From Clostridiales bacterium (GTDB lineage: Bacteria; Bacillota; Clostridia; Christensenellales; UBA3700), in NCBI GenBank assembly GCA_014799575.1, contig JAAVHS010000015.1:143570-207569 (forward strand): 64,000 bases of DNA, in the 5' to 3' direction. Position numbers and translations under genes: made by a program. The notes below the pieces were generated by a model that was given only the letters and a program-made list of their open reading frames with translations, had not been told where the DNA came from and searched no databases. This document shows, piece by piece, positions 43,079-64,000 of this stretch. Positions within the stretch are counted from its first letter, which is position 1. Every line of letters starts with the position of its first letter.

Positions 43079-43591
43079 TTACGGTTTAATTATAATAATT
43101 TCTAAACCTTGATTACGCGCATAATCTATTGTTGATTTAGTTCCCCCATATAGACCATTAAATAACGCTATCATTAGCGATGAATTGTTTACCATAAATC
43201 TATTTCTTTCCAACATACATTCAGGTCCAATATATGTATCAAATTTGCAACGGATTCCGTCTAATTGTTTTAGTAGTTCTCTATATCGTTCTCTATCTTT
43301 ATATTGCCATATTTTATCTTGAGTTTTGCAAGGCAATGCGCCTATGATCTTTATGCCGCTATACTTTTTCTTTAATGCAAGAATTGTTTCCGCGCATATC
43401 ATATCAAAACCAAGCGCCATTCCGCAAAGAAAGGTCCTGTACCCTCTCTCTATTACTTTTTCCAATTCCGTTCGCAATGTTTCTTTCATTACTTTGCAAC
43501 GCTCATCTTCTTCATTAAACCGCCAAGGCAACTTCTGACTCCTATGCCCTGTAAAACATACCGCTCGCTCTTTCTCTATAATTTCACACAT
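43079..43591 (-). CDS. SLOG-fold DUF1273 (YpsA/YoqJ-like) protein
   Basis: 170 aa. CFTGHR, GYRTFLCGMALGFDMICAE, ERNRFMVNNSSLMIALFNG..GGT. Confidence 0.65.
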   Translation of the reverse strand: MCEIIEKERAVCFTGHRSQKLPWRFNEEDERCKVMKETLRTELEKVIERGYRTFLCGMALGFDMICAETILALKKKYSGIKIIGALPCKTQDKIWQYKDRERYRELLKQLDGIRCKFDTYIGPECMLERNRFMVNNSSLMIALFNGLYGGTKSTIDYARNQGLEIIIIKP

Positions 43592-44467: not shown

Positions 44468-47400
44468 TTATCTTCTATTCATAGCCTTTTGCTCTTTCAA
44501 GTAATCGGCATATCTTTCGATTTGATCTTCCCTAAGGTCAATCATATCTTTTGCTGTTCCAAACGCTTGTGCATCCGCTACAATGAGTTCCGTTTCCTTG
44601 ACTTTTATCTTAGAACCGTCGCTAGTCGCATTACGGCGAATATCTTTCATATACTCATCTTCCATTTTATAAAGCGCAACAACCGTGTCTTTCTTGATCG
44701 TCAACTTCAACAATGGATTTGCCGTATTCGGTCCAAAGACTACAAAGTACGTTGACTTCTTCTCTTTGCATTTATCCTTTGAGAGAGCGTAATCTCTAAG
44801 TCCGTCAAAGTACTTCTTCTGTTCTTTACTAAGAGTTGCGTAAGCCTCATCAAGCGTAAGACGTGGAGCAACTTCCTTTTTAGGCTTTGGCGCAGCTGCC
44901 ACCTTAACTTCCTTGATTACCTGTTTTTCAACTACCTTTTCTACAGGCACTTCGACAACCTTTTCTACGACCTTCTCGACTTCGATAGGTACTTCCTTGA
45001 CGACTTCCTTCTCGACTATCTTCTCTACCGGTACTTCAACAACTTTCTCCACTACCTTTTCGACAGGAACTTCAACAACCTTCTCTACGACTTGCGGTTG
45101 ATTGTTTTGGTTGGCAGACAGCTCTAATATCTTTGCCATAAGCAATTCTTGGTTTTTCAACATCTGCTTTATTGTCTCGTCATTTTGTCCGCTTTGCGTT
45201 ACTACTTTAAGTATAGTTTCATCGCTTATGTTTGAAGAAATCGGTTGTAACTTATTAACAAGTTTTTCCAACGTTTCTTCGCTTATGTTGGCGCTTGCGA
45301 CTTCTCTTTCAGCGGGCATCTCAACAAGTTGTTGCATCAACTTCTCAACGCGCCTTTCCGTCTGCTCATTAAGTTTTCTCAATCGTTCTTCATTTTGTGC
45401 GTTCTGCTCCATCAGTTTCTGTACAAACACATCGTTGTTTGCAGTTTCCGAAGGTTTCTCGGCGAGTTGCTTCATAAGTTTCTCATTTTGGTCAATTAGC
45501 TTTTGCACCATCTCATCGTTTGTCGATGCTTGTTGCGGTAACATTTGTTGCATACCTGGGAGCATTGCCGTAACGGTCTCGGATATAAGTCCTCTCATAT
45601 CATCTGCTGTTAAGCCTTGTTGATAAGCAAAACCGCCTTGAGCTCCCGCTCCGCCTGCATTTCCGCCCATCATACCCATGAGCATCATACGCATATTTTC
45701 ATCGCGTTTTTTCTCGTCAAAATCAGCCTTATTGCGATTGTATTCGTCGAGATGATCTTCGTACTCTTCTTCCGCTTTATTGCGTCTTGACTTGGCAATC
45801 AACATCATTACAAACGATACCACTGCCATTACAATCAACACACACGCTATTGCAGTCCATATAGACATTGCCACGCCCAAGAATGCTCCTGCGTACATAC
45901 TCTCCAACTTACTTGCTTTCTTGTTGAACTTCTTTCTCTCTCCGTCATACTTTGCAGTCTTTGATAAGAATACTATAATAAGTATTATGCTTATAAAACT
46001 TGCTATCAACTGCCACAATGGTATTTCTTTGAGTTTCTCTAATATCTCTTCAAGTGAGCCGCCAAATAAGCCTCCACCCTCATTATTGTTGGGGGGATTT
46101 TCGCCGCTTTGGTCTCCGCTGTTTGGATCTTTGTTATCGTCCTCATTAGGAGCATACGTAACTTCTTCCACAACGGAATTACTTGCGTCTATCATTGCAT
46201 AGTTGCTATTGTTAAGTTTAGCGACTACTTTTGCTACTTCCACTCCGTCTGCAATTTCTGCAAGCGTAAGTTCATAGCCATCTTCGTCATAATACGTATA
46301 CGTAAACTCTATATCGCTGTTTCCTCTAACACTCAACTTAGGCAAACCGCTTTCTTCATCTGTCGTCCAATTCAACCTATTTTGCGTTATAGTTGCCTTT
46401 TCAATCTTGACGGTAACAGTGTAACTATCCGTAGTTCCGTCTTCGTCATCCCAACAGAATATTTCTTCATCTTCAAGGCTAATTCTTATGGTGTATTCGC
46501 CCGCATCGGTCAAGTTGCCATCTAGTATTTCAAACTTGACACCCGTAGGCATTTCATCTCCGCTTCTCAAGAATTCTTCGATAGTATGCGGATTTCCGTC
46601 ATAGGTAATTTTCTTGTTGGTATCGAATACAGGTTTTACAATAGATGCGCTCGATCCCGGTCGAAGTACCGTCTTTGGCTCGCCGTATATCTTGATATCG
46701 TCCTCGTAGCCATCTTTAGCGAACAACTCTTTGAAGTATGGAACGCCTGTTTCCATATCTCTAATACCATTTGCAAGAATATTGCCATCGCTGTCTTTAT
46801 ATCTGTAATCTACGTAGGATTTTACCCAATCGTCCAATACTGCCGTAGCGTTGGTATTATTACCTTGCCACTCCAAGTTTATCTCATAAGCCTTTACTCT
46901 TACCAAAGTGGAAGCCGCCGGCCAAACTCCGTCTTGCCAATCTATATTGTCATAATCTAACAAATCAAATACTACTGTGTACTCGCCCGCCTTGATTGCC
47001 TTGTAAGCGTCTCCGTCAAGTCCGTCAAAAGCGCTACCGTCTTTCGTGATGGTAATCGTCATATAATTTTCCCATCCCTCTTCGGTTATGCCAAACATTT
47101 GGGCGAAATCGTGTACTTCTCCGTCAAATACCGTCCAACTCTTGTCAAATACAGGAGTCGGCAATATCTTGACTGAAATGCTCCAATTCAATCTTGTCTG
47201 CAAAGAGCTTGGCATAACTACCGTCTCATAGTTGCTACCCAAGTCAGCGAGTGCGTATTGTATTGAATAATTACCCACTTTGCTCTGTGTACGTTCACCG
47301 CTATTATAAGAGATATAATCTTTCAAGATTTCGGGTACGTTGATAAGTCCGACGGTATATGATGCTTCTCTACCGCTTGCTCTAGTATACGGCAATGCTC

Positions 47401-49978
47401 CCGTATATTCCGTTTCTTCTCCGTCTCCAATTACGTATCCCCATACGATAGCCGACGCATCTACCTTGGCTTTTGCTATGCTCCAAGAAAGCGTAGTCGG
47501 GAAGTTGGGCGCATTGTAATTCTTGGTATCGTAAGAGAACGTAATACGCGCGGTATAGTCGTTGCCCGCATTGGTTTCTTCGTGACCTATTACGCTTATG
47601 CTCAAGCCGTTTATACTGTCCTTACCGACAAGCGTCAACGTATGCGCCGTATTATCATACGTCATCGGATCAATTTCATTGTTGCTTGCATCCAACCACT
47701 TGTTTTGGTCGAAATCATATGTAGCCGCAACGTTGCCGTGTGTATACTGCCATTTGAGTCCGCTCACGTCAAAGTCGGCTTTGATTATCTCGAAATTAAA
47801 TTCCAAACATCCGCTGTCAATATAGTTATCCTCTGCTTTATCGCTATTAAGTACGACTTCTATTCTGTACTTACCCACTTCCGTAGGTTCGCCAATAATA
47901 GGACTAGTAGCTCCGTCCTTGTAGTAATGAAGCGTGATATCTTGCGCTCCTACTCCGCCATCGGCTTGAAGTATCTCTATACTAGGCGAGTATGCGCTAC
48001 CTGTGTATGACAACTGTTTGTCTTGGATATTCTCGCCATTCCATTGCAATTCCAACTTGACAACGAATTTATCCTTACCAATGACGAACGTGTATTCTGC
48101 CGTATCGCCTGTCGATAACTTATAATTCCCGCTATACGCTGTCTTGAGCGTAGCCACTACCCTATACGTGGTCTCTTCTGTTACTTCATCAGGACTCGGC
48201 AACGTGGTAACTTGTTCGCTGCCTTTATAATAAGTATAGTCTACCATGTTCGCTTGTGGAAGATTGTTAAGCGTAGGCCACGTGTATTGAGTCACGTTTC
48301 CGTTGTTGTCATTCTTCCAACTTACGCTGATTGTCGCTTGGATTATCTTCCAACTTACAGAAAATTCGAAGTCATCGCCTATATAAGAAGTCTTATCACT
48401 CGCAATAGGTACGATATAATTATTCACGTAATCTGACGTTATACTAAACGTAACGGTCGTGGTATAGTCGCCCACGGGCGTTTTACTTCTGTCGCCTGTA
48501 TACGTCGCTGTCAAACCTGCGGGCAATACGCCTTGCAATTCCATGCTTTGCGGAGATCCGTTGTATTCTAATTGTTTTACGCTAGGCCAACTCAATCCCG
48601 TCAAATTGTACTTCGCCTTATCTATGCGATAAGACAAAGTATATTGCTTGGTGTAAGTCTCGTAAGTGTTGTCTAAATTCGTTAAATGAACTGTGACTGA
48701 ATATAGCGACGTACTAGCGTTTGTTGCGCTAATATTTCCGCTATATCCGCCCGTAGTACCACTCTTGGTCGTGTCTATCTTGACGCCGTGCGAAGCAAGT
48801 ACGCTGTCGTCTATGCTAAACGTATACGGACTGCCTGTGTATACAACTGAATAATTCGTAGGATAGCCTATTGAAATACTATTGCACAACCAATCAATAT
48901 CTGTGTCTTGTAGCGTAATACCTACTCCGCTGACGTGGAATACCAACGTCTTTGGCGTAGACAACGTGTAATTGCCGTTGGCATTACTACTGCTTGCGTT
49001 AGCCTTTTCGACGTATATCGTATAGTCGCCTTTGGCAATGCCCGTCGGCATTGTTATAGTAGTTGTCTTACCGCTTACTACTTTAATGGTATTGATTTCA
49101 TCGTACTTTGTGCCTGTACCTATACTGTTATTTATATAATATATCTTTAATTCTATTGTATCATTAGTATATGAATCTTCCGTTATCGTTACGGTAGGTT
49201 GAACTCCGTAATTCCAAGTATTGTTGTTTGCATCGCAACTTATTGTGATGCCCAACGCTTTTGGATTTATTGTCACAGGCAATGAAAAACTATCCGTTCC
49301 ACCGCTCGACCACACCATTGAGCTTTTCTCGACTAGCGAAAACGTGACGTAATAAGTACCCGCGTCTTTGACTTTCAATTTACCGTCTTTCAACTCTAAT
49401 ACGCCATCTTTTAACTCTAATATATTATTGTCTTTTTTGATATTATCGATTTTAACGTCATCGCTCAATCCGTTGATGGTAAATTCTTGCAGTTCGCCGT
49501 TATACGACAAAGTATTCGACCCTATGGTCGGCTTTGTCACGGGTTTTGCGGTAATCGAAAGGTCAGGCGTTGCTTTGCAAGTACCTTTCAATTCATAGTT
49601 ATTGTTTGGGTTCATCGTCGCTGTGACGGTATACGTACCTACCGCAGTGGGATATTGGGTATATGTTTCGCCCGTTAAATTGTTTTTGTAAGTAATAGTA
49701 AACGTCGGCGCTCGATCTCCTGTATCGCTGTCGTATATCTTATTGGCGTCAGGGTCGTTGGCAACGACTATAGGCGTGACGGTATAACCTCCGCCGCTCG
49801 ACGTAGGTTTTATCTCACATTCTATAGGTTTTTTCTTGATTGTAAATGTAAATTTTCGAGTTGTAGCGTCTTCACCTTTGCTTACATCGGGGTCGCCTTT
49901 GAACGTAAATTCCGGGTCTTCTTGTAATTTCTGGTCAGAAATCTTCGCCGTCACTGTATAAGTGCCGGCGTCTTTCAT
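44468..49978 (-). CDS. MBG-repeat surface protein, distal part of the DGR target. The frame stays open upstream to 50209.
   Basis: 1836 aa as listed. Repeated AGTY(T/Y)VT...YNG MBG-type units, a TM helix (LWQLIASFISIILIIVFL plus a second helix), and a cytoplasmic tail with EKVVEVPV repeats. No signal peptide and no clear RBS at the listed ATG. Confidence 0.7.
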   Translation of the reverse strand: MKDAGTYTVTAKISDQKLQEDPEFTFKGDPDVSKGEDATTRKFTFTIKKKPIECEIKPTSSGGGYTVTPIVVANDPDANKIYDSDTGDRAPTFTITYKNNLTGETYTQYPTAVGTYTVTATMNPNNNYELKGTCKATPDLSITAKPVTKPTIGSNTLSYNGELQEFTINGLSDDVKIDNIKKDNNILELKDGVLELKDGKLKVKDAGTYYVTFSLVEKSSMVWSSGGTDSFSLPVTINPKALGITISCDANNNTWNYGVQPTVTITEDSYTNDTIELKIYYINNSIGTGTKYDEINTIKVVSGKTTTITMPTGIAKGDYTIYVEKANASSSNANGNYTLSTPKTLVFHVSGVGITLQDTDIDWLCNSISIGYPTNYSVVYTGSPYTFSIDDSVLASHGVKIDTTKSGTTGGYSGNISATNASTSLYSVTVHLTNLDNTYETYTKQYTLSYRIDKAKYNLTGLSWPSVKQLEYNGSPQSMELQGVLPAGLTATYTGDRSKTPVGDYTTTVTFSITSDYVNNYIVPIASDKTSYIGDDFEFSVSWKIIQATISVSWKNDNNGNVTQYTWPTLNNLPQANMVDYTYYKGSEQVTTLPSPDEVTEETTYRVVATLKTAYSGNYKLSTGDTAEYTFVIGKDKFVVKLELQWNGENIQDKQLSYTGSAYSPSIEILQADGGVGAQDITLHYYKDGATSPIIGEPTEVGKYRIEVVLNSDKAEDNYIDSGCLEFNFEIIKADFDVSGLKWQYTHGNVAATYDFDQNKWLDASNNEIDPMTYDNTAHTLTLVGKDSINGLSISVIGHEETNAGNDYTARITFSYDTKNYNAPNFPTTLSWSIAKAKVDASAIVWGYVIGDGEETEYTGALPYTRASGREASYTVGLINVPEILKDYISYNSGERTQSKVGNYSIQYALADLGSNYETVVMPSSLQTRLNWSISVKILPTPVFDKSWTVFDGEVHDFAQMFGITEEGWENYMTITITKDGSAFDGLDGDAYKAIKAGEYTVVFDLLDYDNIDWQDGVWPAASTLVRVKAYEINLEWQGNNTNATAVLDDWVKSYVDYRYKDSDGNILANGIRDMETGVPYFKELFAKDGYEDDIKIYGEPKTVLRPGSSASIVKPVFDTNKKITYDGNPHTIEEFLRSGDEMPTGVKFEILDGNLTDAGEYTIRISLEDEEIFCWDDEDGTTDSYTVTVKIEKATITQNRLNWTTDEESGLPKLSVRGNSDIEFTYTYYDEDGYELTLAEIADGVEVAKVVAKLNNSNYAMIDASNSVVEEVTYAPNEDDNKDPNSGDQSGENPPNNNEGGGLFGGSLEEILEKLKEIPLWQLIASFISIILIIVFLSKTAKYDGERKKFNKKASKLESMYAGAFLGVAMSIWTAIACVLIVMAVVSFVMMLIAKSRRNKAEEEYEDHLDEYNRNKADFDEKKRDENMRMMLMGMMGGNAGGAGAQGGFAYQQGLTADDMRGLISETVTAMLPGMQQMLPQQASTNDEMVQKLIDQNEKLMKQLAEKPSETANNDVFVQKLMEQNAQNEERLRKLNEQTERRVEKLMQQLVEMPAEREVASANISEETLEKLVNKLQPISSNISDETILKVVTQSGQNDETIKQMLKNQELLMAKILELSANQNNQPQVVEKVVEVPVEKVVEKVVEVPVEKIVEKEVVKEVPIEVEKVVEKVVEVPVEKVVEKQVIKEVKVAAAPKPKKEVAPRLTLDEAYATLSKEQKKYFDGLRDYALSKDKCKEKKSTYFVVFGPNTANPLLKLTIKKDTVVALYKMEDEYMKDIRRNATSDGSKIKVKETELIVADAQAFGTAKDMIDLREDQIERYADYLKEQKAMNRR
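44905..45092 (-). repeat. In-frame tandem repeat encoding (V/I)VEKVVEVPVEK units
   Basis: Protein VVEKVVEVPVEKVVEKVVEVPVEKIVEKEVVKEVPIEVEKVVEKVVEVPVEKVVEKQV. The corresponding DNA units recur with small changes. Confidence 0.7.
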
Positions 49979-51606: not shown

Positions 51607-52071
51607 ATGTTTGTAAAAATCACATCTGTTGCTACTCTTCCCGATTATATCCTTCTCGTAGGATTTGTGTCAGGCGAATATAAGCAATTCGACTTAAAAC
51701 CGCTTATAGAAAAATATGCGCCGTTCAAATCTTTGGTAGAAGTGGAAGGCCTTTATGAACAAGTGAAAATCGACGTAGGCGGTTATGGTCTTGTCTGGAA
51801 CGACGATCTCGATATCGCCGCAGATGGAATTTATGACAAAGGTATTTCTTGCGCTCCTCCGAGCGACATAGAAACTTACAGACAAAAACTTGTCGAAGAG
51901 TTTGTCAAAGCGCGTAAGAACGCAGGTCTTTCTCAAAAACAACTCGAAATTCTTTCGGGGATTCCCCAACCATGTATCGCTCGAACGGAAAAAGGGTTAA
52001 CAGATCCGCAACTTACAACTTTACTAAAACTACTTTCCCCATTAGGTTTGACTCTTTCAATTACAAAATAA
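51607..52071 (+). CDS. DUF2442 domain / XRE-type HTH fusion protein
   Basis: 154 aa. N-terminal pattern V..LPDYILLVGFVSGEYKQFDL..DVGGYGLVWNDDLDIAADGIY fits DUF2442. C-terminal AGLSQKQLEILSGIPQPCIARTEKG is an HTH. Confidence 0.65.
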   Translation: MFVKITSVATLPDYILLVGFVSGEYKQFDLKPLIEKYAPFKSLVEVEGLYEQVKIDVGGYGLVWNDDLDIAADGIYDKGISCAPPSDIETYRQKLVEEFVKARKNAGLSQKQLEILSGIPQPCIARTEKGLTDPQLTTLLKLLSPLGLTLSITK

Positions 52072-52822: not shown

Positions 52823-54466
52823 CTACTGTCTGGCTTTTGATTTCATCCAACCGCTCAACATCTTCTTGACTTCGCAAACTTGCTTACCTATAAGCATGGC
52901 TTGTTTGTTTGTAATGGCCTGCTTAACCTTTGCGGTCTCAGCATAAAAGTCCAATAGACACAAGTTGACCATTGCTTGCTTTTGGTACTCGCTACGCTTT
53001 TCATCTCTTTCAAAATTTGCGTAGTACAAACTCTCTATGACTGACGTCGATGCGTCCATAAGCCTTGATACAATACTCCATCTCAATGTCTTTGGCGACT
53101 TTTCCGTGATAACAAAAATATACTCGCTCAATTTCTTTGCGCCTGTAAACACTTGCATTTCTCTGTCTTTGGGTTGATTGAAGTCAGTTATCTTAAAAGG
53201 CTTTTTCTCCCCTTCTTGCGTTTGGTTTTCAATTGTGTTTTCTTTGGTTTCTCCCAAAAGTTCATTCTTTATTTCTTGGTCTATGTCGTTCATCATCTCT
53301 TTCAAATACTCCTTTTGTCCTTCATACGTAGATAATTTTTTCTCTTCGGCAAATGCTTTTTCTTTCTCTTCGATCGGCTCTAATTTCCGCTCGATTTCTT
53401 TTGCAAACTTTATACTCTTTGCGTGTTTCAAATGACCGTGAAATGCTGCGCACGTTTGCCTTATTCGTTCAATATTTATCAGTCCCTCATAGTATCCTTT
53501 CTTTATTAGTTTCACTCGCCATCGGAATCTTCGCTTGGTTTGCTTCTTTATCGTCTTGACTATTTCCCCTTCAGGTGTAACAACAAATCTGTACCCAAGA
53601 TAAGTCACTCCGTTCTTTATCGGAAATATCTGTGTCTTGGAATTTAATTTCAAGCCTAGCCGCTTTACCAAATCTTCTATCCGTTCTTTGACGTACTTTA
53701 TGTATTCAAGGTTTTCGTGCATAAGTACGAAGTCATCCATATACCTTGAATATACCTTTATTCTCAACTGCTCTTTTATTAATCTATCCACGGGGTCAAG
53801 ATAAAACATTCCAAAAATTTGACTTGTCTGATTTCCAATCGGTATACCCCTTCCCGTCTCTTCGCCTTTGCCTAATGGCTCTATACCGTACTTAGTCAGA
53901 TAATCGGGACTTGTGCTGTATCCGTCAATTACGCCTTCTATCATCTTTCGTATGCGCTCGTCCACTATGCGAGTACAAACTACCGACTTTAACTTGTCAT
54001 GCGGTATGCTTGCAAAAAATTTGAGTACGTCGCACTTGAGAAAATACCCATTGACTCCATTCTTATCTATGTGTCTACGCAACATTTTTTCAAATCTATC
54101 CAATGCAAAATGACTGCCTTTGCCCTTTTGGCAAACACAATTATCATAAATTACCCTATTTGCAAAATATGGCATAAGCATATTATCGCATAAGACGTGC
54201 TGTATCACTCTGTCGCAATACCGCATATTTTGAATCTCTCGACGCTTGGGCTCAAATACTAAAAAGGTGTTATAGCCACCAAACTTAAATGTACCGTTTA
54301 TTAATTTCTTATGTAATTCGTAAATATTTCCTAATGCGGAAATTTCAAATTTTACTATGGGTTTCTTACTTCTACGAGAAGCCCTGCTCTTCAAGTGAGC
54401 TGCATAAAGATTTTCTATACTGAACAACTCTTCGTAAGTGTTCGTTATCAATTTATTTGTTTTCAA
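52823..54466 (-). CDS. DGR reverse transcriptase with C-terminal Avd-like domain
   Basis: 547 aa, TTG start with GGAG 5 nt upstream. RT motifs FEPKRREI, CQKGKGSHFA, GIPIGNQTSQ (the DGR-specific (I/L)GxxxSQ) and SRYMDDFVLM. C-terminal ~115 aa: SPKTLRWSIVSRL..ESLYYAN..EVKKMLSGWMKS, resembling the Avd four-helix bundle. Confidence 0.85.
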   Translation of the reverse strand: MKTNKLITNTYEELFSIENLYAAHLKSRASRRSKKPIVKFEISALGNIYELHKKLINGTFKFGGYNTFLVFEPKRREIQNMRYCDRVIQHVLCDNMLMPYFANRVIYDNCVCQKGKGSHFALDRFEKMLRRHIDKNGVNGYFLKCDVLKFFASIPHDKLKSVVCTRIVDERIRKMIEGVIDGYSTSPDYLTKYGIEPLGKGEETGRGIPIGNQTSQIFGMFYLDPVDRLIKEQLRIKVYSRYMDDFVLMHENLEYIKYVKERIEDLVKRLGLKLNSKTQIFPIKNGVTYLGYRFVVTPEGEIVKTIKKQTKRRFRWRVKLIKKGYYEGLINIERIRQTCAAFHGHLKHAKSIKFAKEIERKLEPIEEKEKAFAEEKKLSTYEGQKEYLKEMMNDIDQEIKNELLGETKENTIENQTQEGEKKPFKITDFNQPKDREMQVFTGAKKLSEYIFVITEKSPKTLRWSIVSRLMDASTSVIESLYYANFERDEKRSEYQKQAMVNLCLLDFYAETAKVKQAITNKQAMLIGKQVCEVKKMLSGWMKSKARQ

Positions 54467-56524: not shown

Positions 56525-56849
56525 TAATTTGATGATATTATTTTTTTTATATTTATCAATATTCTTGTATTTTACATACTTCCTGTACAATTTACATTTT
56601 TTCGGTAAATAACAAGTAAATTATTCCTTACCAAATAATGATTATTAACTTTAAATCAAAACAAATTCATTTATTTTTGATACTTTTTAAACTAAACAAA
56701 CTCATACAACTTTCCTCTGAATTTATGCTGAAATAGTATTCTGTTTAAGTAAATAATTCGCTCTATTCCTTATACTATGTTTCTATAAGTTCAATCAAGG
56801 CGAATCTGTGTTTAATTGTACCATAAAACCACTTGAAAAAAGTCGCCAA

Positions 56850-56922
56850 CCATAGGGTTGCGATACATACCTATAGATACCATTAGGTTGGAGATACTCT
56901 CTCGTACACATCTCGTACACAT
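56850..56922. repeat. Short direct repeats in the non-coding end region
   Basis: ccatagggttgcgatac (56850) and ccattaggttggagatac (56880). Tandem ctcgtacacat x2 (56901-56922). Further aaattagca x2 near 57010 and 57030. Confidence 0.6.
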
Positions 56923-57045
56923 TTCAGTCAAAAACAGATAAAAACGGAAAAAAACAAATTGAACCAAATTGAAATGATTTTTCTTGGTATGTGTCGATTT
57001 TAGCCATACAAATTAGCATTTATTGAACTAAATTAGCACATATAA

Positions 57046-57129
57046 AACTGCGATTTTTCCGTGGGTAACAACCCAATGGTAGGCGCTTCCGTATCTTGCG
57101 CAGTTGCAGTAGAAGAAGCTTTGAAGTAA
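57046..57129 (+). pseudogene. Orphan 3'-terminal fragment of an unidentified plus-strand gene (possible integration-target remnant)
   Basis: 27 codons NCDFSVGNNPMVGASVSCAVAVEEALK-stop preceded by an in-frame TAA. Followed by a plus-strand terminator. No upstream coding sequence. Confidence 0.4.
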
Positions 57130-57175
57130 TTCACCAACACAAAATATTGTGTTTTACTTAAATAAATAACAACAT

Positions 57176-57207
57176 ATAGCGGTCTTGAAAGAGACCGCTA
57201 TTTTTTA
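57176..57207 (+). terminator. Plus-strand rho-independent terminator
   Basis: atagcggtct-tgaaag-agaccgctat (10-bp stem) followed by T5-6. Confidence 0.7.
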
Positions 57208-57315: not shown

Positions 57316-58617
57316 TTAACTAAAAACTCTATTAACAACACTCCTGCCCTGTTGTCTTATATCGTCTGTCACATGCTCATAAACTTCAAACGTAGTGCTC
57401 AATTTTGAGTGTCCTAATCTGCATTGGATATACTTCTGCGTAGCGCCACTTTCTGCAAGAATACTTGCATGCGTATGTCTCAATGAATGATAATCAAATT
57501 CTTCGCAAATATCTTTCTTTATTATCTTTGTCGCATGTTGCATAGTTCTTGGACTAATAAAAGTACCGTCCTCTCTTATACAAACAAAATGAATAAGATA
57601 ATCTGTTTCTTGAGTTCGAATTCTATTTTGAATATCATTGTACATATTAAATTTATTATCAAATACTAAAGGTCTATCAGAATAATAGTTGTGATAATAT
57701 ATCCCATAATACGCTTTTGCTATCTCTTGTCTTTTCTTTTCTACCGACAGTATTTTAGCTAATCCATCACTAATCTCTATGGCGCGATAAGAATTATATT
57801 TTGGCGCTGAAAAATACCAATAACCATTGCCACATTCTGATGAGCCGTTGTTAGCAATTTTGTCATATATTGTTCTTTCTTTATCTTGATACCATTGAAC
57901 TTGTCTGTTTATATAAATAACCTTGTTGACTAAATCTATATCTTCCCAACACAGTCCAAAAGTTTCCCCCAAACGTAAACCGCACTCATAGCCAAGTTTT
58001 AAAGGAATATAGCTCGAGCTTCTTTCTGTAAAGCGTTCAAATATTTTTTGCATTACTTCACCTTTAATAAAATGATGCGGAGCCGAACGTGTTGGCACTT
58101 GGGGCACTCTATTCTTAGGTATTTTCAATCTAACTGCCGGAGTGCAAACTATGTAGTGATTGTCCATTGCATAATTCATACTTTTAGTAAGCATTCCTTT
58201 AAATGAAACTAGCGAATTTCTAGAATAACCGAAGTCATACATCTCGACTAAAAAGGCTTGCAGTACTTCTCTCGTTAAAGATCTTAGCCTATACGAACCC
58301 AATTTAGGCTTGAATACGTTGTCTATAACTTTCTTATAGTGCGTCAACGTCGTTTCTTTCAAGTCAACCATACAATCTTTTTCGAACCAAATATCAAAAA
58401 AATCCGCTACTGAAATCTGATCCTTTGCAATATGTCCATAGTTCTCGTACTGTCTCATCGCTTCCCTTCCTGCTTTTCGCGCTTCAGTAACAGTTTTAAA
58501 TCCGCTCTTTGATTTCCATTTTCTTTTGCCATCAATACTCGCAATCTCAAAGCGGTATTCATACACTGCGCCATTTGTTGAAAAACGTTTTCTGATACAT
58601 AAATTAATCATATACAA
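57316..58617 (-). CDS. Tyrosine recombinase / integrase
   Basis: 433 aa. N-terminal arm-binding-like segment, then HSLRHTHAS (HxxR) and LGHSKLSTTFEVYEHV (catalytic Tyr). Confidence 0.85.
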   Translation of the reverse strand: MYMINLCIRKRFSTNGAVYEYRFEIASIDGKRKWKSKSGFKTVTEARKAGREAMRQYENYGHIAKDQISVADFFDIWFEKDCMVDLKETTLTHYKKVIDNVFKPKLGSYRLRSLTREVLQAFLVEMYDFGYSRNSLVSFKGMLTKSMNYAMDNHYIVCTPAVRLKIPKNRVPQVPTRSAPHHFIKGEVMQKIFERFTERSSSYIPLKLGYECGLRLGETFGLCWEDIDLVNKVIYINRQVQWYQDKERTIYDKIANNGSSECGNGYWYFSAPKYNSYRAIEISDGLAKILSVEKKRQEIAKAYYGIYYHNYYSDRPLVFDNKFNMYNDIQNRIRTQETDYLIHFVCIREDGTFISPRTMQHATKIIKKDICEEFDYHSLRHTHASILAESGATQKYIQCRLGHSKLSTTFEVYEHVTDDIRQQGRSVVNRVFS

Positions 58618-58699: not shown

Positions 58700-59602
58700 T
58701 TACATTTCCAAATCTTTCTTTTTTCTACCACTAACTTTATCATTTGATTCAGTGTTTGTTGCTCCGCTTCCAGAATATATCGAAAGCCATATTTTCATAC
58801 TCTCAAGTTCGCTTTCAGCAAGCAACTTTGCCATACCTTCCGTCTTGCTCTCAGGGCGTGTGCTATACTTTTCTTTATCCCTATAAGAACTTATTGCAGC
58901 ATAATACCTATCGCGTTCTTCATAACGCACGTCGACAGGCAAAAGTCCCAACAAAATCATCTCATAGATTAAAAGCAATCTTCCCGTTCTTCCATTGCCG
59001 TCAACAAATGGATGTATGTTTTCAAACTCAATATGATGTTTCGCAAGATTGTGGAACAACTCAACCCAGTTAAACTGTCCTTTCTCCGCAAGTTCGCAGT
59101 TGCGTTTACAATCGGCTTGCAGTTCTTCCACATACGCTTTCATCTTTTCCGGTACTTGCGACGGCGAACAAGGCGTATAAACTATTCTTGTTAGATTGCC
59201 TATATAATTCTGTATTGTTCTATATTGTCCTGCACCGTCATCACCACGCAAAACAAAACTGTGAACTTTCTTTATAAATTCTTCAGTAATCGGCTTCTTT
59301 TCCTTTACCGATTCATAGAGGAAATCAAAGGCCTGTTTATATCCAACTATGTCTTCGCTCTCACGTAAAGAGTGCGCGCCAGTAACAATTCCTTTTTCAA
59401 TAAGCAACTTGGTTTCGTCAAACGTAAAGGTATTACCCTCTATAGCATTAGAGTTATGGCTAGCGCTAATAGAAAACTCATTATTAAAATACATAAGTTC
59501 GCTTGAAGTAAGCGGACGGACTTCTTTCATACGCGCATAGCAATTCTCTATCTCGCTTATGATTTCTATGTATTTTTGTTGTTCTTCCATTTTTTTAGAC
59601 AT
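58700..59602 (-). CDS. Fic family protein with N-terminal inhibitory motif
   Basis: Start set at the second ATG (MSKKMEEQQ; AGGAG 8 nt upstream). Fic motif HPFVDGNGRTGR. Inhibitory helix motif SNAIEGN. Confidence 0.9.
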   Translation of the reverse strand: MSKKMEEQQKYIEIISEIENCYARMKEVRPLTSSELMYFNNEFSISASHNSNAIEGNTFTFDETKLLIEKGIVTGAHSLRESEDIVGYKQAFDFLYESVKEKKPITEEFIKKVHSFVLRGDDGAGQYRTIQNYIGNLTRIVYTPCSPSQVPEKMKAYVEELQADCKRNCELAEKGQFNWVELFHNLAKHHIEFENIHPFVDGNGRTGRLLLIYEMILLGLLPVDVRYEERDRYYAAISSYRDKEKYSTRPESKTEGMAKLLAESELESMKIWLSIYSGSGATNTESNDKVSGRKKKDLEM

Positions 59603-59690
59603 AGCCATTGCTCCTTTTTTACATTATAATCATATTTATATAAATAGTCAAGGTTAATTCAATCGCCTAACTGTACTTATTTTATTACAG
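59349..59690. repeat. Right copy of the fic 5'-end plus promoter module (partner at 1-345)
   Basis: See the left-copy entry. Homology runs from codon ~87 through the promoter to ~40 nt beyond the -35. Confidence 0.8.
59623..59651 (-). promoter_or_regulatory. SigA-type promoter of the right fic gene
   Basis: Minus strand TTGACT, 17 nt, TATAAT. Confidence 0.6.
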
Positions 59691-59820
59691 AAATTGAATA
59701 AACGTAGAGTAATTAACTTTCAACTTTTATCTTTGGTAAAGTCAATATACGCTAAATACATATTTCAGACTTAATAGCCTGAAAATATTCAGTTTTAAAT
59801 AGTATACATTGCTTCTTAAT

Positions 59821-60935
59821 TTACGATTCTAGTTCAATTGCCAAACCAGTTATATAAGAAAGAATATTATTGTACCCATCTTCAAGCACACTTAATCCAT
59901 CTGCTAACACTCTCAAATTAAGCCACAATAATATTAATTTAACTATTTCATTAGCATTAGTATCTATTGCATCATCAGCATAATCCCCATGCACAATACC
60001 ATTTCTGAAACAAATTCCTTCCGTCTTTACATTTGCAAATATTTTTTTATAATAATTATTAATTTTTTCCCAACTATGCTGTTCCCATTCAATACTTATT
60101 TTATCTAATAAATCTTTTATCTTTTTTGCTCTTTCATGACCTTTTCTATATTCTTTTTCTTGGTAAAATAGCCTTCAAACGCATCAGCGCATCTTTTATG
60201 CTCACTTTCCAACAATGCAAAAATATTTCTTGCAGCAGCTCGATAGCACCCTTCATTTAGAAGATTAATTGATATTATGATATCTTCTCCTTTTCTGCCC
60301 ATAATTGGACTTGGATTTGGCATATTTACATATCTATCGAGCATTACTCTTAAATTTAAACTATCGTTAAACAAGTATGTGTCAATCAAAAAACTTTCTG
60401 TTAACTCATCATCAAGTATATCTATATCAGGTGTTTCAAGAAAATACAATAAAACTCCATTATCTGCGTATTGGTCCATTCTTTCAATATATTCTTTTGT
60501 AAAAAATCTCTTTCTATCATTTTCTATCTGCTTATTTAATTTATATACCGCATTAAAATATTCGTAATTTGCCTTTCCTAACTCGTCTTGCAGTGCTTTA
60601 TCTTCTCTGAATTCTGGTATCTCTTTCATTCGTTCTGAAATATACACATATTCTTCTGATTTGTTAATGAACACATTTAACAACCATCTCATAGCTTCGA
60701 CAGAAGTTTCTTTTTGGCTAAACTTACTTTCAATATCAGGATATTTTTCTTTTAATTTTGAAAGCCCTAATATAATTAAATTTTTAGATTTCTCGTCCAA
60801 CTCATCACGTATTTCTTGCTTTTCATGTGCAATCTTGCTCAACCGTATCTGTTCCTTAATAGCTTTCTTTATTTCTTCGGTTAACATTTTTTGTTGTTTA
60901 ATTAAAAAATTAAAATATTTTTCTTCTGTCAACAT
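59821..60935 (-). pseudogene. HEPN-motif (Abi-like) gene interrupted by a frameshift at an A6 run
   Basis: The 272-aa ORF ends ..MKEQKR-stop at 60117. A 99-codon ORF with no start codon continues in the -1 frame to 59821 and contains ICFRNGIVHGDY (Rx4H). An A7 run instead of A6 (plus-strand T run 60122-60127) would fuse them into ~370 aa. Confidence 0.6.
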
Positions 60936-60991: not shown

Positions 60992-63028
60992 TTACTCTTT
61001 GGGGGATAATAAATCTGATGGAATTGAAATTTCTATTGCATTGGGAAATCTATGTTTGAATTGTTCAACCTCGCTATTAGTGAGAACTCGAACACACGCA
61101 AGATTTTTCTTAGCACGAGAACATGCGACATATATTAACTTTTGAGAGTTTATTTTTTTCTCAACATTCTTTTCGCCTTCTTTATAAAGCAAAGAAAAGT
61201 CATATTGATTCCAAAAATATTCTTCCATTACAACAATAACAGAAGGTATACTGGTACCTTTAGTTTTGTGCATCGTAATATAATTTGTTTCCTCATCAAG
61301 ATACTTTGCATAATTTAATACCTCTGAAAACTTGAGATTCGACGAAAATAAATCTGTTATGAAGCGTTCTTTTTCCCACTGCGATAAATAAAAATCAAAT
61401 TCTTCTTTGGATGAAACAATATTACTATCCTTGATTCGGCTATATGTATTTAATCCACTTAAATAATTAGTTTTAAACTTTTGATATAAATCATCGTGTA
61501 TTAGTTGCTTCAAATAATTGTCATTCCGTGCAGATATGTTTCTATAAGTTTCAGTTCTTTTAATAATTTGTTGTTTAATAGCATTCTCCACTATGTCTAT
61601 AATAGATGAATTTGAATCATTTATTATACCATGTATTATATCATGTAATCTCTTCTTGTCAGCAATAGAATGTATAACATATCCACCTTTTTTTGCAAGT
61701 CTAATTACCTCATTATAATTCCCCTTTAAATATAAACGGCATAAGTCGCTTACATCCAGTGCTTGTATAGAACGCAAATAGCTTTCTATCCTGTCACTCA
61801 CATCAAGATATCTTTCATCAAAAACTTTATAAAGCTGTTTGAAGTCATTTTTCTCAGCGATTGCCTTATTTGTAAGAATTAATACTTTGGAATTACCCAC
61901 ATTTTTTTGCGCCTCGGCAATTAAATAATTAATAAGTTTTTGAAATTTTCCTTTTTCATCGGGGTCACTTTTTGATGTCGGTTTACTTTCTACTACAGAA
62001 TATAGAATCTTTACCACACCATGACGATCCGCTTCATTTTCATATCTTCCATCGCTTAGTTTTTTTAATGCAACATCTTGAGAAATACTGTCGATACGCA
62101 AAGAATTAATTAATTCGACGACTTCATATGAGCATCTATAATTGTCGACTTTAGCAATTTCATCAAGCATTCCAGTTTCTATATAGGCATCCAAACTTCC
62201 AATTCCATCATCATAAATAGCTTGCATACTATCTCCAAATAGCCCAATTGTCAAATTGTATTCTGAAGACAACTGCAACATATCGCTCATAATTTCTGCT
62301 CTAGTATCCTGATACTCATCGATAAAAATATAGTCATACTTATCTGAAATAATTTTACCCAATATGGGATACTCTTTTACCATGTAATGAAAAATAGCAA
62401 GAAGTCCATCGTGGCCATAACTCAAATCACCAAAACTATCAAATTTCGTCTCATTGTAAATTATTGAAGAATAATCTTTTTCATTAATGATGTCTAAGAT
62501 TTTATTATTGAGAGTTTTGATTTTTTCATTAAGAACTTGATTGTAATTTTCAGGAGATTTATCATAGTCTCTTTTATTAACAACTTTGTCGCAATTCTCT
62601 TTACAAATAGAGTATAGCTTACCAGAATACTTGCTATATATTTTTTTGTATTTTTCGTACTCATCTTTTTTATATTCCGTTTCAGAGATATCTTCAGTTT
62701 GCACACCATGTCTAATTGATGGGACTAAAAACAATCCTGGAATTACTGATTTTATATTTTTCTTATAATTTCCAATCAATCCATATAAAAACGAGTGAAT
62801 TGTACTGATGTAGTAGCCATCACCTACTCTATTCACAATTTCTTCAACTGCGGCATTTGTATGTGTAATACAAACAACTTTGGCCTGGGGTTGAGATTGC
62901 TTAATATATAAAAGCAGCTCTTTTAGTGATTCAGTTTTTCCACTTCCAGCACCACCTTGAAGAACAAAACTTCTATGCAAATCAATACACTTTTTACATT
63001 GGTCTAATGCACTTGTTTCTGTAACCAT
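60992..63028 (-). CDS. UvrD/PcrA-family SF1 helicase (GajB-like)
   Basis: Start set at MVTETS (AGGAGG 6 nt upstream), giving 678 aa. GGAGSGKT, FIDEYQDT, GDSMQAIY, ITMHKTKGTSIP, YVACSRAKKNL. Confidence 0.85.
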   Translation of the reverse strand: MVTETSALDQCKKCIDLHRSFVLQGGAGSGKTESLKELLLYIKQSQPQAKVVCITHTNAAVEEIVNRVGDGYYISTIHSFLYGLIGNYKKNIKSVIPGLFLVPSIRHGVQTEDISETEYKKDEYEKYKKIYSKYSGKLYSICKENCDKVVNKRDYDKSPENYNQVLNEKIKTLNNKILDIINEKDYSSIIYNETKFDSFGDLSYGHDGLLAIFHYMVKEYPILGKIISDKYDYIFIDEYQDTRAEIMSDMLQLSSEYNLTIGLFGDSMQAIYDDGIGSLDAYIETGMLDEIAKVDNYRCSYEVVELINSLRIDSISQDVALKKLSDGRYENEADRHGVVKILYSVVESKPTSKSDPDEKGKFQKLINYLIAEAQKNVGNSKVLILTNKAIAEKNDFKQLYKVFDERYLDVSDRIESYLRSIQALDVSDLCRLYLKGNYNEVIRLAKKGGYVIHSIADKKRLHDIIHGIINDSNSSIIDIVENAIKQQIIKRTETYRNISARNDNYLKQLIHDDLYQKFKTNYLSGLNTYSRIKDSNIVSSKEEFDFYLSQWEKERFITDLFSSNLKFSEVLNYAKYLDEETNYITMHKTKGTSIPSVIVVMEEYFWNQYDFSLLYKEGEKNVEKKINSQKLIYVACSRAKKNLACVRVLTNSEVEQFKHRFPNAIEISIPSDLLSPKE

Positions 63029-64000
63029 TCGAGTCCCTCCTTGATATATGCTGGAGTATTCCAATTTAGTCCATTTGCATGCGTGAGGAATAAAATAGTA
63101 GATGCAAAGTCAGACTTTTTACTAATAACTCGCGTTGTCAGTTTATACATGTCAGAACAAGTTTCAAATTCTTCTTTATTTTTCAATCCTTCTATTGATG
63201 AAAGATTTGATTTGATTTGCGATAAATTTACATTGATAAATGCATCTTCAAAACTTCTTGCGTAGTACGATTTTTCCTCCCCTTGATAAGCGATATGGAC
63301 ATTGGGGCTTATGCAATTAGCTTTATGCTTTAACACATCATTAAACCAACTGCTGTACGAATCATCCCCCACTTTACAATTTGGTTCTCCTAAGTAATAC
63401 ATTATTGTAGCATTGCTTGTTTTGCATACATTAGAATCATTTACCTCACATGATGAATACCAAACTCCCTTGTCTGTAGTTTCTTGCTTCACTGTATCAA
63501 TATCGGTAATTATTAGCGATGGTATTTTCAAAAACTCAAGAAAATGCCGAAACACTTTTGCATTAGCACCAGCACGAACAACCGTCACATTTTGAGCTGA
63601 TAGTGGAATATAAGTAGGTTTTAATGTAGGATCATTAGCAATTCTGGTCTCCTCTTCCTCAATCTTGACTGTATCAAATTGTGTAATGAAGTGTTGCAGT
63701 AAAATATCTTCTGATATACCTTCAATAAAAATTGCCTTATCTGCAAAAAACAGTTCTGACGATTCAATAGAAAGATACTGCTTTAAAAATTTAAACTCAT
63801 TCTGTTCACCAGAGTACATACTGCTTAAGTCTTTGTGAAAATTCTTAATCTCTATATTATAAAACCCCTCTGAATCTCTTATAGTGGACATATATCTAAT
63901 GTTCTCAAAAGGATGACTGGCTACAATATGGGAAGAGTGAGTTGTGATAATCGTCTGCATACCTGGAATACCACTAACGATTTCACTAATTTTTCTGGCA
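63004..64000 (-). CDS. OLD-family ATPase/Toprim nuclease (GajA-like), C-terminal part; gene continues beyond the window
   Basis: The frame stays open to the window edge. IITTHSSHI (ABC H-loop region), FIEGISEDILL (Toprim Glu), LIITDIDT (DxD). Confidence 0.75.
   Translation of the reverse strand, partial: ARKISEIVSGIPGMQTIITTHSSHIVASHPFENIRYMSTIRDSEGFYNIEIKNFHKDLSSMYSGEQNEFKFLKQYLSIESSELFFADKAIFIEGISEDILLQHFITQFDTVKIEEEETRIANDPTLKPTYIPLSAQNVTVVRAGANAKVFRHFLEFLKIPSLIITDIDTVKQETTDKGVWYSSCEVNDSNVCKTSNATIMYYLGEPNCKVGDDSYSSWFNDVLKHKANCISPNVHIAYQGEEKSYYARSFEDAFINVNLSQIKSNLSSIEGLKNKEEFETCSDMYKLTTRVISKKSDFASTILFLTHANGLNWNTPAYIKEGLEWLQKQVH

What the first reader, a model, noticed from the sequence alone, without database searches (positions are those of the whole stretch)
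60992..64000. Gabija-like pair (OLD ATPase/Toprim plus UvrD-like helicase) with an unusually long helicase and a third gene
The OLD-family protein has the TTHS H-loop region, Toprim EG.SE and DxD motifs. It overlaps the start of an SF1 UvrD-like helicase.

This is the Class 2 OLD / Gabija (GajA-GajB) arrangement.

The helicase here is 678 aa. It is followed in the same operon by a HEPN-motif gene, an addition I am not aware of in canonical two-gene Gabija.
Basis: partly seen in the sequence, partly recalled or inferred. Interest (0 to 1): 0.55.

Follow-up and report, generated by a model that had tools for sequence, protein, structure and literature searches.

The report
Ordinary Gabija pair beside broken HEPN-like gene
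This is a standard two-gene Gabija anti-phage system of an already catalogued long subtype, and the "third gene" is a frameshift-broken member of an unrelated, uncharacterised HEPN-like family that merely sits next to it on a small mobile defence island.

Summary
The Gabija call is right. The OLD/Toprim ORF (63004 to beyond 64000, minus strand; 671 aa in the full contig) and the 678-aa UvrD-like helicase (60992-63028) match PADLOC GajA and GajB profiles end to end (E 4e-186 and 7e-247). They overlap by 25 nt.

The helicase is not unusually long. Its best profile has 669 positions, and nearly all of its 120 closest relatives are 669-697 aa.

The third gene is not a Gabija component. It lies outside the stated coordinates (59821-60935). 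Here it is split by a 1-nt deletion in an A-rich tract. The 272-aa ORF lacks the invariant RNxxxH motif, which sits in the -1 frame. Its family is normally 371 aa and has no Pfam, NCBIfam, PHROG or PADLOC match.

Synteny fails in both directions. None of 29 species-representative loci carrying a family member has GajA or GajB within 10 kb. None of 46 loci with this Gabija subtype has the third gene. Family members usually form their own cassette with a small HTH gene and a small HNH nuclease, or follow other defence genes (HsdR, Avs4-like).

In this window Gabija, the broken gene, a SoFic-like Fic and an integrase lie between about 330-nt direct repeats.

Verdict: ordinary, low interest.

The parts
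63004..64000 (-). gajA, 3' part (C-terminal 332 of 671 codons; the gene continues beyond the window end). It is an OLD-family ABC ATPase plus Toprim nuclease.
   Evidence: Translation shows the TTHS, EGxSE and DxD motifs. PADLOC GajA PDLC00065 gives E 9e-94 on the fragment and E 4e-186 over residues 1-669 of 670 profile positions on the full protein from L001. Pfam OLD-like_TOPRIM hit.
60992..63028 (-). gajB, a 678-aa SF1 UvrD-like helicase. The ATG is at 63028; an upstream TTG at 63064 would give 690 aa.
   Evidence: PADLOC GajB PDLC00125 E 6.8e-247, residues 14-681 of the 690-aa translation on profile positions 2-667 of 669. Pfam UvrD-helicase and AAA_19. Public gene calls use 678 aa.
63004..63028 (-). 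25-nt overlap between the gajA stop and the gajB start.
   Evidence: Coordinates. The same 25-nt overlap is seen in relatives L086-L092.
59821..60935 (-). Third gene: a frameshift-disrupted member of an uncharacterised, normally 371-aa HEPN-like family. It appears as a 272-aa ORF (60117-60935) plus a -1-frame remainder ending at 59821. The annotated 57-aa ORF 59821-59994 is its tail.
   Evidence: tblastn of intact homologues hits two frames. The reconstruction gives exactly 371 aa.
60146..60164 (-). Frameshift site: a 1-nt deletion in ACCAAGAAAAAGAATATAG relative to intact homologues.
   Evidence: DNA comparison with L003, L004 and L015. The site is identical in L001 and L002, which are 100% identical to the window.
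59989..60006 (-). RNGIVH, the family-invariant Rx4H (HEPN-type) motif. It lies downstream of, and out of frame with, the 272-aa ORF.
   Evidence: R311, N312, H316, G317 and Y319 invariant in 39 sequences.
59763..59784 (-). Weak terminator-like hairpin after the end of the third gene. No terminator-like site lies between gajB and the third gene.
   Evidence: The 56-nt gajB-to-third-gene spacer with a GGAG ribosome-binding site is shown.
58700..59608 (-). Fic-domain gene (SoFic / PDC-S04-like) with its own promoter-like site (59651-59623) and a strong terminator (58659-58633).
   Evidence: Pfam Fic 7.8e-19. PADLOC SoFic 7e-35 and PDC-S04 5.5e-36. Promoter and terminator scan.
57316..58617 (-). 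Tyrosine integrase of the island.
   Evidence: Pfam Phage_integrase, Phage_int_SAM_3 and Arm-DNA-bind_4.
56810..57200 (.). One copy of a roughly 330-nt direct repeat (88-90% identical). The other copy lies about 12.8 kb away, beyond the window end (L001 about 922-1290). Together they are the putative island boundaries.
   Evidence: blastn and alignment. No Rfam family was found in this region.

Best explanation
The locus is a canonical two-gene Gabija system of the long GajA/GajB subtype (671 and 678 aa). It is carried as cargo on a roughly 13-kb integrase-bearing island.

By homology to characterised Gabija, GajA (ABC ATPase plus Toprim) and GajB (UvrD-like SF1 helicase) should form a complex. 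In that complex GajA nicks or cleaves DNA when nucleotide levels fall during infection, and GajB senses DNA ends and hydrolyses (d)NTPs. This step is inferred, not shown here.

The gene 56 nt downstream of gajB is an independent defence-island gene. It belongs to a small, uncharacterised all-helical family with a C-terminal HEPN-like module. In this genome a 1-nt deletion cuts off the putative catalytic RNxxxH motif, so it is most likely a pseudogene. Its adjacency to Gabija is a lineage-specific accident of island packing, not a three-gene Gabija variant.
For: Gabija identity:
- End-to-end PADLOC GajA and GajB hits and Pfam domains.
- Catalytic motifs read directly from the sequence.
- gajA lies directly upstream of gajB in 34 of 39 related loci. 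The 25-nt overlap is conserved in the closest relatives.

Helicase length is the norm:
- The best profile has 669 positions.
- There are 2584 relatives at E<=1e-20, and nearly all of the best 120 are 669-697 aa.

Third gene is broken:
- Homologues are about 371 aa.
- tblastn splits the window copy over two frames.
- The cause is a 1-nt deletion relative to L003, L004 and L015.

No linkage:
- 0 of 29 species-representative loci with a family member have GajA or GajB within 10 kb.
- The closest family members (72-77% identity) follow HsdR, an Avs4-like NTPase or a 1049-aa unknown protein, or stand alone.
- 0 of 39 metagenome Gabija loci carry the gene, 21 of which have at least 1.2 kb downstream.
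- 0 of 7 loci for the closest GajB relatives (74-76% identity) carry it.
- The family usually has its own partners: HTH plus HNH directly downstream in 19 of 29 loci.

Island context: integrase, Fic, flanking direct repeats and low GC.
Against: - The third gene is co-directional with gajB, only 56 nt downstream, has a ribosome-binding site, and no terminator-like site lies in between. Co-transcription with gajAB in this strain is therefore plausible.
- In its closest relatives the same gene sits 18-40 nt downstream of other large defence proteins. This could mean a real functional coupling to whichever system lies upstream.
- The frameshift rests on one strain. L001 and L002 are 100% identical to the window, so a sequencing error is not excluded.
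- The window's GajA and GajB are only marginally similar to the experimentally studied B. cereus proteins. The mechanism is therefore extrapolated across a large distance.
Confidence: 0.8

Rival explanations
1. Three-gene Gabija variant. The HEPN-like protein is a dedicated accessory effector of this Gabija subtype and is co-transcribed with gajAB.
For: The genes share a strand, the spacer is 56 nt, and no terminator-like site lies between gajB and the third gene. There is a precedent for an RNase-like partner of GajB: type II Gabija has a MazF-like GajC (PMC13069673).
Against: Synteny fails in both directions: 0 of 29 plus 15 further family loci, and 0 of 39 plus 7 Gabija loci. The gene is frameshifted upstream of its invariant motif. 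Nucleotide similarity to the closest relatives starts at the ATG and ends at the stop, so the gene moved as a stand-alone ORF. GajC is a different fold and replaces GajA.
Confidence: 0.04
2. Promiscuous back-up effector. This HEPN-like family is a PrrC-like second-line RNase that plugs in at the 3' end of unrelated defence operons (type I R subunit, Avs4-like NTPase, KAP/PDC-S49, Gabija). It is held inactive by, or fires on failure of, the upstream system. In this strain the Gabija-linked copy has decayed.
For: In the 72-80% identity clade the gene sits 18-56 nt downstream of, and co-directional with, at least four unrelated large defence-type genes. Anantharaman et al. 2013 report at least 16 HEPN clades linked to R-M systems and propose PrrC-like coupling (PMC3710099). 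Other alleles in the family are also disrupted upstream of the RNxxxH motif, as expected for a toxic effector.
Against: There is no functional data. Tight packing of co-directional genes is normal in defence islands. Most family members (19 of 29 loci) sit in their own HTH-HNH cassette next to integrases or housekeeping genes, not after a defence gene. HEPN membership itself is unproven.
Confidence: 0.13
3. The third gene is actually intact or expressed. The single-base gap would be an assembly or sequencing error, or it would be bypassed by -1 ribosomal slippage on G_AAA_AAG to give a 371-aa protein.
For: A -1 shift after the codons AAG AAA AAG restores exactly the family length and sequence (FTKKKEYRKGHE). 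The site resembles the A_AAA_AAG slippery heptamer (my own knowledge of dnaX and IS911 frameshifting).
Against: About 90 homologues need no shift. The first heptamer base is G, not A, and no stimulatory structure was looked for or seen. A run of five A is not a typical Illumina error site. The same sequence appears in the ENA and Logan assemblies (L001, L002) and as the same 272-aa product in an NCBI MAG record, although these may derive from the same strain or reads.
Confidence: 0.1

Closest known systems
Gabija (GajA-GajB) of Bacillus cereus VD045, the experimentally and structurally characterised system
   Same: An OLD-family ABC ATPase plus Toprim protein is followed by an SF1 UvrD-like helicase. 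The two genes are adjacent and overlapping. All catalytic motifs are present. Both proteins are called GajA and GajB by PADLOC profiles. The two-protein composition and the 4:4 complex are described in PMC10822852 and PMC10681800.
   Different: The proteins here are much larger: GajB is 678 aa against 493-499 aa in PDB chains. GajA is 671 aa against about 578 aa (the latter figure is from memory). Pairwise similarity is marginal: GajB E about 5e-4, and B. cereus GajA is not detected at E<=1e-3. The best PDB match for GajA is the Thermus OLD protein 6p74. This is a distinct, already profiled subfamily (PDLC00065 / PDLC00125).
Class 2 OLD nucleases (OLD gene paired with a UvrD/PcrA-like helicase; classification recalled from Schiltz et al. 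2019)
   Same: The defining gene pairing is present and is conserved in relatives.
   Different: None of note. Gabija is the defence-system name for this class.
Type II Gabija (GajB plus MazF-like GajC; PMC13069673)
   Same: It shows that GajB-type helicases can work with an RNase-like partner.
   Different: GajC replaces GajA and has a MazF-like fold. Here GajA is present, and the neighbour is an all-helical HEPN-like protein that is not linked to Gabija elsewhere.
PrrC / RloC and other R-M-linked HEPN proteins (Anantharaman et al. 2013, PMC3710099)
   Same: The third-gene family has an invariant RNxxxH, an Ex3K in the preceding helix, and an insert between helices 2 and 3. Several members sit directly after HsdR-type genes, and a Fic/Doc gene is a neighbour here.
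   Different: There is no ABC ATPase domain and no significant sequence or fold match to any HEPN family. The usual partners are a small HTH gene and a small HNH nuclease. Function is untested.
SoFic / PDC-S04 Fic-domain defence candidates
   Same: The downstream Fic gene (58700-59608) matches these PADLOC profiles and has the HPFxDGNGR motif.
   Different: It is a separate transcription unit with its own promoter-like site and terminator. The NCBIfam SoFic score is far below the cutoff (40.7 against 550).

Membership tests
Gabija | GajA: OLD-family ABC ATPase with a C-terminal Toprim nuclease domain | tested here: met
   PADLOC GajA PDLC00065 E 4.2e-186, residues 1-669 on profile positions 1-666 of 670. 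Pfam OLD-like_TOPRIM, AAA_15 and AAA_21. Walker A GKNNTGKT, FIEEPE, TTHS, EGISE and DID read directly.
Gabija | GajB: SF1 UvrD-like helicase | tested here: met
   PADLOC GajB PDLC00125 E 6.8e-247, full length. Pfam UvrD-helicase 2e-20. Motifs I, II, III, V and VI read directly.
Gabija | gajA immediately upstream of gajB on the same strand, conserved as a pair | tested here: met
   25-nt overlap here. GajA lies upstream in 34 of 39 related loci. The same overlap is seen in L086-L092.
Gabija | Detectable homology to the experimentally validated B. cereus VD045 proteins | tested here: inconclusive
   GajB against PDB GajB chains gives only E 5.5e-4 to 8.7e-4. GajA has no hit to B. cereus GajA at E<=1e-3. 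Membership rests on PADLOC sub-profiles.
Gabija | Confers phage resistance; GajA-GajB form a complex | not testable with these tools
   Requires an experiment.
Three-gene Gabija variant (GajA-GajB plus HEPN-like protein) | The third gene is conserved next to gajAB in related loci | tested here: not met
   0 of 39 metagenome loci. 0 of 7 loci for the closest GajB relatives. 0 of 29 species-representative loci carrying the third-gene family have GajA or GajB. 0 of 15 further loci for its closest relatives.
Three-gene Gabija variant (GajA-GajB plus HEPN-like protein) | The third gene is intact | tested here: not met
   A 1-nt deletion splits it at codon 261, upstream of the RNxxxH motif.
HEPN superfamily | Conserved Rx4-6H motif with a polar residue after R, located after helix 3 (definition: PMC3710099) | tested here: met
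   R311, N312 and H316 are invariant in 39 sequences of 30-80% identity. The motif lies between helix 283-299 and helix 328-370 of the model.
HEPN superfamily | Conserved acidic residue in helix 2, typically Ex3[KR] | tested here: met
   E243-S-E-H-K247 lies in helix 231-250. E245 is invariant; E243, H246 and K247 are at least 90% conserved.
HEPN superfamily | Four-helix up-down bundle with an insert between helices 2 and 3, and structural similarity to solved HEPN domains | tested here: inconclusive
   The AlphaFold models are confident (pLDDT 91.5 and 89.2) and have the expected helix order. Foldseek gives no hit at E<=0.001. HEPN entries appear only at E of about 2-5: 2hsb with TM 0.53, 3o10 with TM 0.45, and Csm6.
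HEPN superfamily | Significant profile match to a described HEPN family | tested here: not met
   No Pfam hit at the gathering score. Only 2 of 39 members hit HEPN_RiboL-PSP, at E 0.03. Remote members also have no Pfam hit. hhalign against an AbiU2 family alignment gives probability 0.5%. NCBIfam, PHROGs and PADLOC give nothing.

The most novel reading that the evidence does not exclude
The third gene belongs to an undescribed HEPN-like family. It has about 114 clusters at 50% identity in 1.8 billion proteins and no model in Pfam, NCBIfam, PHROGs or PADLOC. Its default form is a three-gene cassette: a 371-aa HEPN-like protein, an HTH of about 70 aa, and an HNH nuclease of about 103 aa. In one clade the gene has repeatedly been re-hitched as a bare ORF to the 3' end of unrelated defence operons (type I HsdR, Avs4-like NTPase, a 1049-aa unknown protein, Gabija). 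This would be a portable PrrC-like back-up RNase that guards whichever system it follows. The window would hold a decayed Gabija-linked example.
Probability: 0.15. Interest if true: 0.6.

Novelty: new member of a known kind. Interest (0 to 1): 0.25.

Why it matters
For Gabija, little changes. This is one more instance of a subtype that PADLOC already models and that has thousands of relatives. It does not extend the system's architecture.

The practical lesson is that a co-directional gene 56 nt downstream of a defence operon is not evidence of membership. Reciprocal synteny settled the question quickly.

The by-product may be worth a follow-up. It is a compact, unannotated HEPN-like family with a conserved HTH-HNH partnership and a habit of sitting directly behind different defence genes. 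That makes it a plausible candidate for a new stand-alone or back-up defence module.

Tried and rejected
- Structural identification of the third protein. Foldseek of the full-length and C-terminal AlphaFold models against PDB, and of the full-length model against BFVD, gave no significant match.
- Sequence identification of the third protein. Pfam, NCBIfam, PHROGs, PADLOC and a PDB sequence-profile search all gave nothing. Remote family members found with a 1.84-billion-protein profile search also have no Pfam domain.
- hhalign against an AbiU2 HEPN family alignment gave probability 0.5%.
- Programmed -1 frameshift or transcriptional slippage was considered and judged unlikely. The site is G_AAA_AAG with only five A, and no homologue needs a shift.
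- 'GajC' from the literature turned out to be an unrelated MazF-like protein that replaces GajA.
- A search for shared flanking DNA, cassette boundaries or a conserved promoter around the third gene found none. Similarity starts at the ATG and ends at the stop.
- An Rfam search of the direct-repeat region for an RNA integration target gave no hit. No tRNA is present in the window.
- A Fic-HEPN pairing was considered. Fic lies within 6 kb in only 3 of 30 family loci.
Full report
**What is in the sequence**

All relevant genes are on the minus strand.
- An ORF is open from the window edge (63999) to a stop at 63004.
- Two public contigs are 100% identical to the window: L001 (ENA, 129 kb) and L002 (Logan). 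They extend this ORF to a 671-aa protein with an N-terminal Walker A, GKNNTGKT.
- The next gene starts at the ATG at 63028 and ends at 60992. It encodes 678 aa and overlaps the first gene by 25 nt. It carries the SF1 helicase motifs GAGSGKT, DEYQD, GDSMQAIY, TMHKTKG and YVACSRA.
- The observation about the pair is therefore correct. The OLD gene is only half inside the window.

**Identity of the pair**

- The full OLD protein matches PADLOC GajA profile PDLC00065 from end to end (E 4.2e-186, residues 1-669 on positions 1-666 of 670).
- The helicase matches GajB profile PDLC00125 from end to end (E 6.8e-247, on positions 2-667 of 669).
- Pfam gives OLD-like_TOPRIM, AAA_15, AAA_21 and UvrD-helicase.
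- In 39 metagenomic loci encoding relatives of the helicase (25-62% identity), 34 have a GajA relative directly upstream.
- In the closest relatives (74-76% identity for GajB, 78-81% for GajA) the gene lengths and the 25-nt overlap are the same.
- This is Gabija by every criterion I could test.
- One caveat applies. The proteins are very distant from the experimentally studied B. cereus VD045 pair. GajB scores only E about 5e-4 against the PDB GajB chains. GajA finds the Thermus OLD protein 6p74 but not B. cereus GajA.

**'Unusually long helicase'**

- The solved GajB chains are 493-499 aa, so 678 aa is long relative to the model system.
- It is the standard length of this helicase's own subfamily. 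The best PADLOC profile has 669 positions.
- A search of 5.8 billion proteins found 2584 relatives at E<=1e-20. Nearly all of the best 120 are 669-697 aa.
- Nothing is unusual here.

**The third gene is broken in this genome**

- The gene 56 nt downstream of gajB (ATG at 60935, GGAG ribosome-binding site) is annotated as a 272-aa hypothetical protein. It lies outside the coordinates of the finding.
- 94 homologues were found, and full-length ones are almost all about 371 aa.
- tblastn of intact homologues against the window gives residues 1-272 in one frame and residues 257-371 in the -1 frame, ending at 59821.
- Comparison with the DNA of the closest intact relatives (L003, L004, L015) shows a single missing base in ACC AAG AAA AAG AAT, at window 60146-60164.
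- Stepping back one base after the third lysine codon restores a 371-aa protein collinear with the family.
- The 57-aa ORF at 59821-59994, called as a separate gene in the public records, is the tail of this protein.
- The 272-aa product lacks the family's invariant motif.
- I consider a true inactivating mutation most likely. An assembly error or -1 slippage on G_AAA_AAG cannot be excluded, because all copies available are the same strain.

**What the third-gene family is**

- An alignment of 39 members (30-80% identity) shows invariant R311, N312, H316, G317 and Y319 (RNxxxHGDY).
- It also shows a conserved YRSAARNxFALLESEHK helix containing E243-x3-K247, and an invariant GVLLYFLETPD segment in the N-terminal half.
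- AlphaFold models are confident: pLDDT 91.5 for the full length and 89.2 for residues 203-371. Both are all-helical.
- The helix order is helix 210-227, helix 231-250 (with Ex3K), an inserted helix 266-280, helix 283-299, the RNxxxH loop, and a long helix 328-370.
- This agrees with the description of HEPN domains by Anantharaman et al. 2013: Rx4-6H after helix 3, a polar residue after R, Ex3[KR] in helix 2, and an insert between helices 2 and 3 (PMC3710099).
- No statistical link could be made:
  - There is no Pfam, NCBIfam, PHROG or PADLOC hit.
  - Foldseek finds HEPN structures only among non-significant helical-bundle hits (2hsb TM 0.53, 3o10 TM 0.45).
  - hhalign against an AbiU2 alignment is negative.
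- 'HEPN-like' is therefore a reasonable label and 'HEPN' is unproven.
- The family is small. A profile search of 1.84 billion representatives found 114 at E<=0.001.

Direction 1, from the third gene outwards:
- 29 species-representative genomes carry a family member. None has a GajA or GajB relative within 10 kb by phmmer, apart from one 15.6-bit match to the GajA query (E 2.4e-4) in L014.
- 15 further loci for the four closest relatives (72-77% identity) also lack Gabija.
- Instead, 19 of 29 loci have an HTH gene of about 70 aa at +85 to +150 nt and an HNH nuclease of about 103 aa at +395 to +445 nt on the same strand. Two more loci end after the HTH, and one has only the HNH.
- The family's usual context is therefore its own three-gene cassette.
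- Where the cassette is absent, the gene lies directly behind other defence-type genes:
  - type I R subunits (L004, L015, L082-85);
  - an Avs4-like 1587-aa NTPase (L003, L079);
  - a KAP/PDC-S49 NTPase (L023);
  - a PDC-S01-like ATPase (L021);
  - a 1049-aa unknown protein (L071-74).

Direction 2, from Gabija outwards:
- None of the 39 metagenome Gabija loci contains the gene. 21 of them have at least 1.2 kb downstream of gajB.
- None of 7 loci for the closest GajB relatives contains it.
- Their downstream neighbours all differ: a 273-aa unknown protein; AbiEi plus HNH_3 plus AbiU2; nothing; or an opposite-strand gene.

Nucleotide similarity between the window and its closest third-gene relatives begins at the ATG and ends at the stop. 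The gene therefore moved as a bare ORF. The three-gene Gabija hypothesis is refuted.

**Context**

- Downstream lie a Fic gene (58700-59608) and a tyrosine integrase (57316-58617).
- The Fic gene hits SoFic and PDC-S04 profiles and has its own promoter-like site and terminator.
- A roughly 330-nt sequence next to the integrase (about 56810-57200) recurs at 88-90% identity about 12.8 kb away, beyond gajA (L001 about 922-1290).
- The repeats bracket the integrase, Fic, the broken gene, gajB, gajA and two further genes.
- GC is 0.28-0.34 across these genes, against 0.39-0.45 a few kb away.
- I infer a small integrative defence island. The att sites themselves were not defined.

**Mechanism**

- Shown here: domain content, motifs, gene order and conservation.
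- Inferred from the literature on B. cereus Gabija: GajA and GajB assemble into a complex. GajA is a nucleotide-inhibited DNA nicking endonuclease. GajB senses DNA termini and hydrolyses (d)ATP and (d)GTP, which relieves the inhibition and aborts infection.
- Given the sequence distance, the details (site specificity, stoichiometry) may differ.
- The third gene, if it were intact, would most plausibly be a metal-independent RNase toxin or effector. Here it should be inactive.

**Novelty and score**

- The Gabija pair is a new member of a known, already profiled kind.
- The residual interest is the uncharacterised HEPN-like-HTH-HNH cassette and its recurrent placement behind unrelated defence genes. 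This echoes the PrrC paradigm but is untested.
- Overall interest is 0.25.

**Unexplained**

- Besides the window's deletion at codon 261, two other family alleles break at almost the same place.
  - L093 joins unrelated sequence after residue 257.
  - L096 diverges after residue 262, just before its contig end.
- Other alleles are frameshifted near residue 290.
- Whether this reflects a fragile A-rich tract, selection against the catalytic half, or assembly artefacts is open.

Noticed in passing
L005-L031, L075-L078 (for example L075:6001-7819): The third-gene family usually forms a conserved co-directional cassette: a 371-aa HEPN-like protein, an HTH of about 70 aa (+85 to +150 nt) and an HNH nuclease of about 103 aa (+395 to +445 nt). 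This is seen in 19 of 29 species-representative loci. The first protein is in none of the searched domain or defence libraries. The HNH is more conserved (67-100% identity) than the large protein.
   Followed up: partly
L003, L004, L015, L021, L023, L071-74, L079-85: Where the HTH-HNH partners are missing, the gene sits 18-40 nt (163 nt in L021) downstream of unrelated large defence-type genes: HsdR, an Avs4-like NTPase with SMEK_N, KAP/PDC-S49, PDC-S01-like, and a 1049-aa protein with no hits.
   Followed up: partly
L093:312-1091; L096:373-1164; proteins P0023, P0048: Independent disrupted alleles of the same family exist. Two break within 5 codons of the window's frameshift, after residue 257 (L093, joined to unrelated DNA) and after residue 262 (L096, then the contig ends). 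Two others are frameshifted near residue 290. All disruptions lie upstream of the RNxxxH motif.
   Followed up: partly
window 56810-57200 and L001:922-1290 (about 12.8 kb apart, second copy beyond the window end): A roughly 330-nt direct repeat (88-90% identical) includes a terminator hairpin. The copies bracket the integrase, Fic, the broken gene, gajB, gajA and two more genes. They are probably island boundaries. No Rfam family or tRNA was found there.
   Followed up: partly
window 58700-59608 (-): A Fic-domain protein with HPFVDGNGR matches PADLOC SoFic and PDC-S04 candidate defence profiles. It has its own promoter-like site and a strong terminator. It is probably an independent defence or toxin gene on the same island.
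   Followed up: partly
window 52823-54466 (-): A 547-aa reverse transcriptase has a C-terminal bAvd-like region that scores below the Pfam cutoff. The best PADLOC hits are a generic RT profile (PDLC01136, 1.6e-30) and RT_UG17/DRT (1.1e-28). It is a possible defence-associated RT next to an HTH/DUF2442 gene (51607-52071).
   Followed up: no
window 44468-49978 (-) and 37459-41064 (-): Two very large ORFs (1836 aa and 1201 aa) have no Pfam, PHROG or PADLOC hit. A YpsA/SLOG-family gene (43079-43591) lies between them.
   Followed up: no
L001:1742-4278 (beyond the window end, upstream of gajA): Two overlapping genes sit on the same island: a hexapeptide-repeat protein (335 aa) and a 510-aa protein with a weak GTP_EFTU hit. 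Neither has a PADLOC hit. A gap of about 1.6 kb without called genes separates them from gajA.
   Followed up: no
window 59821-59994 (-): The 57-aa 'gene' called in public annotations is the out-of-frame C-terminal fragment of the disrupted HEPN-like gene, not an independent gene.
   Followed up: yes
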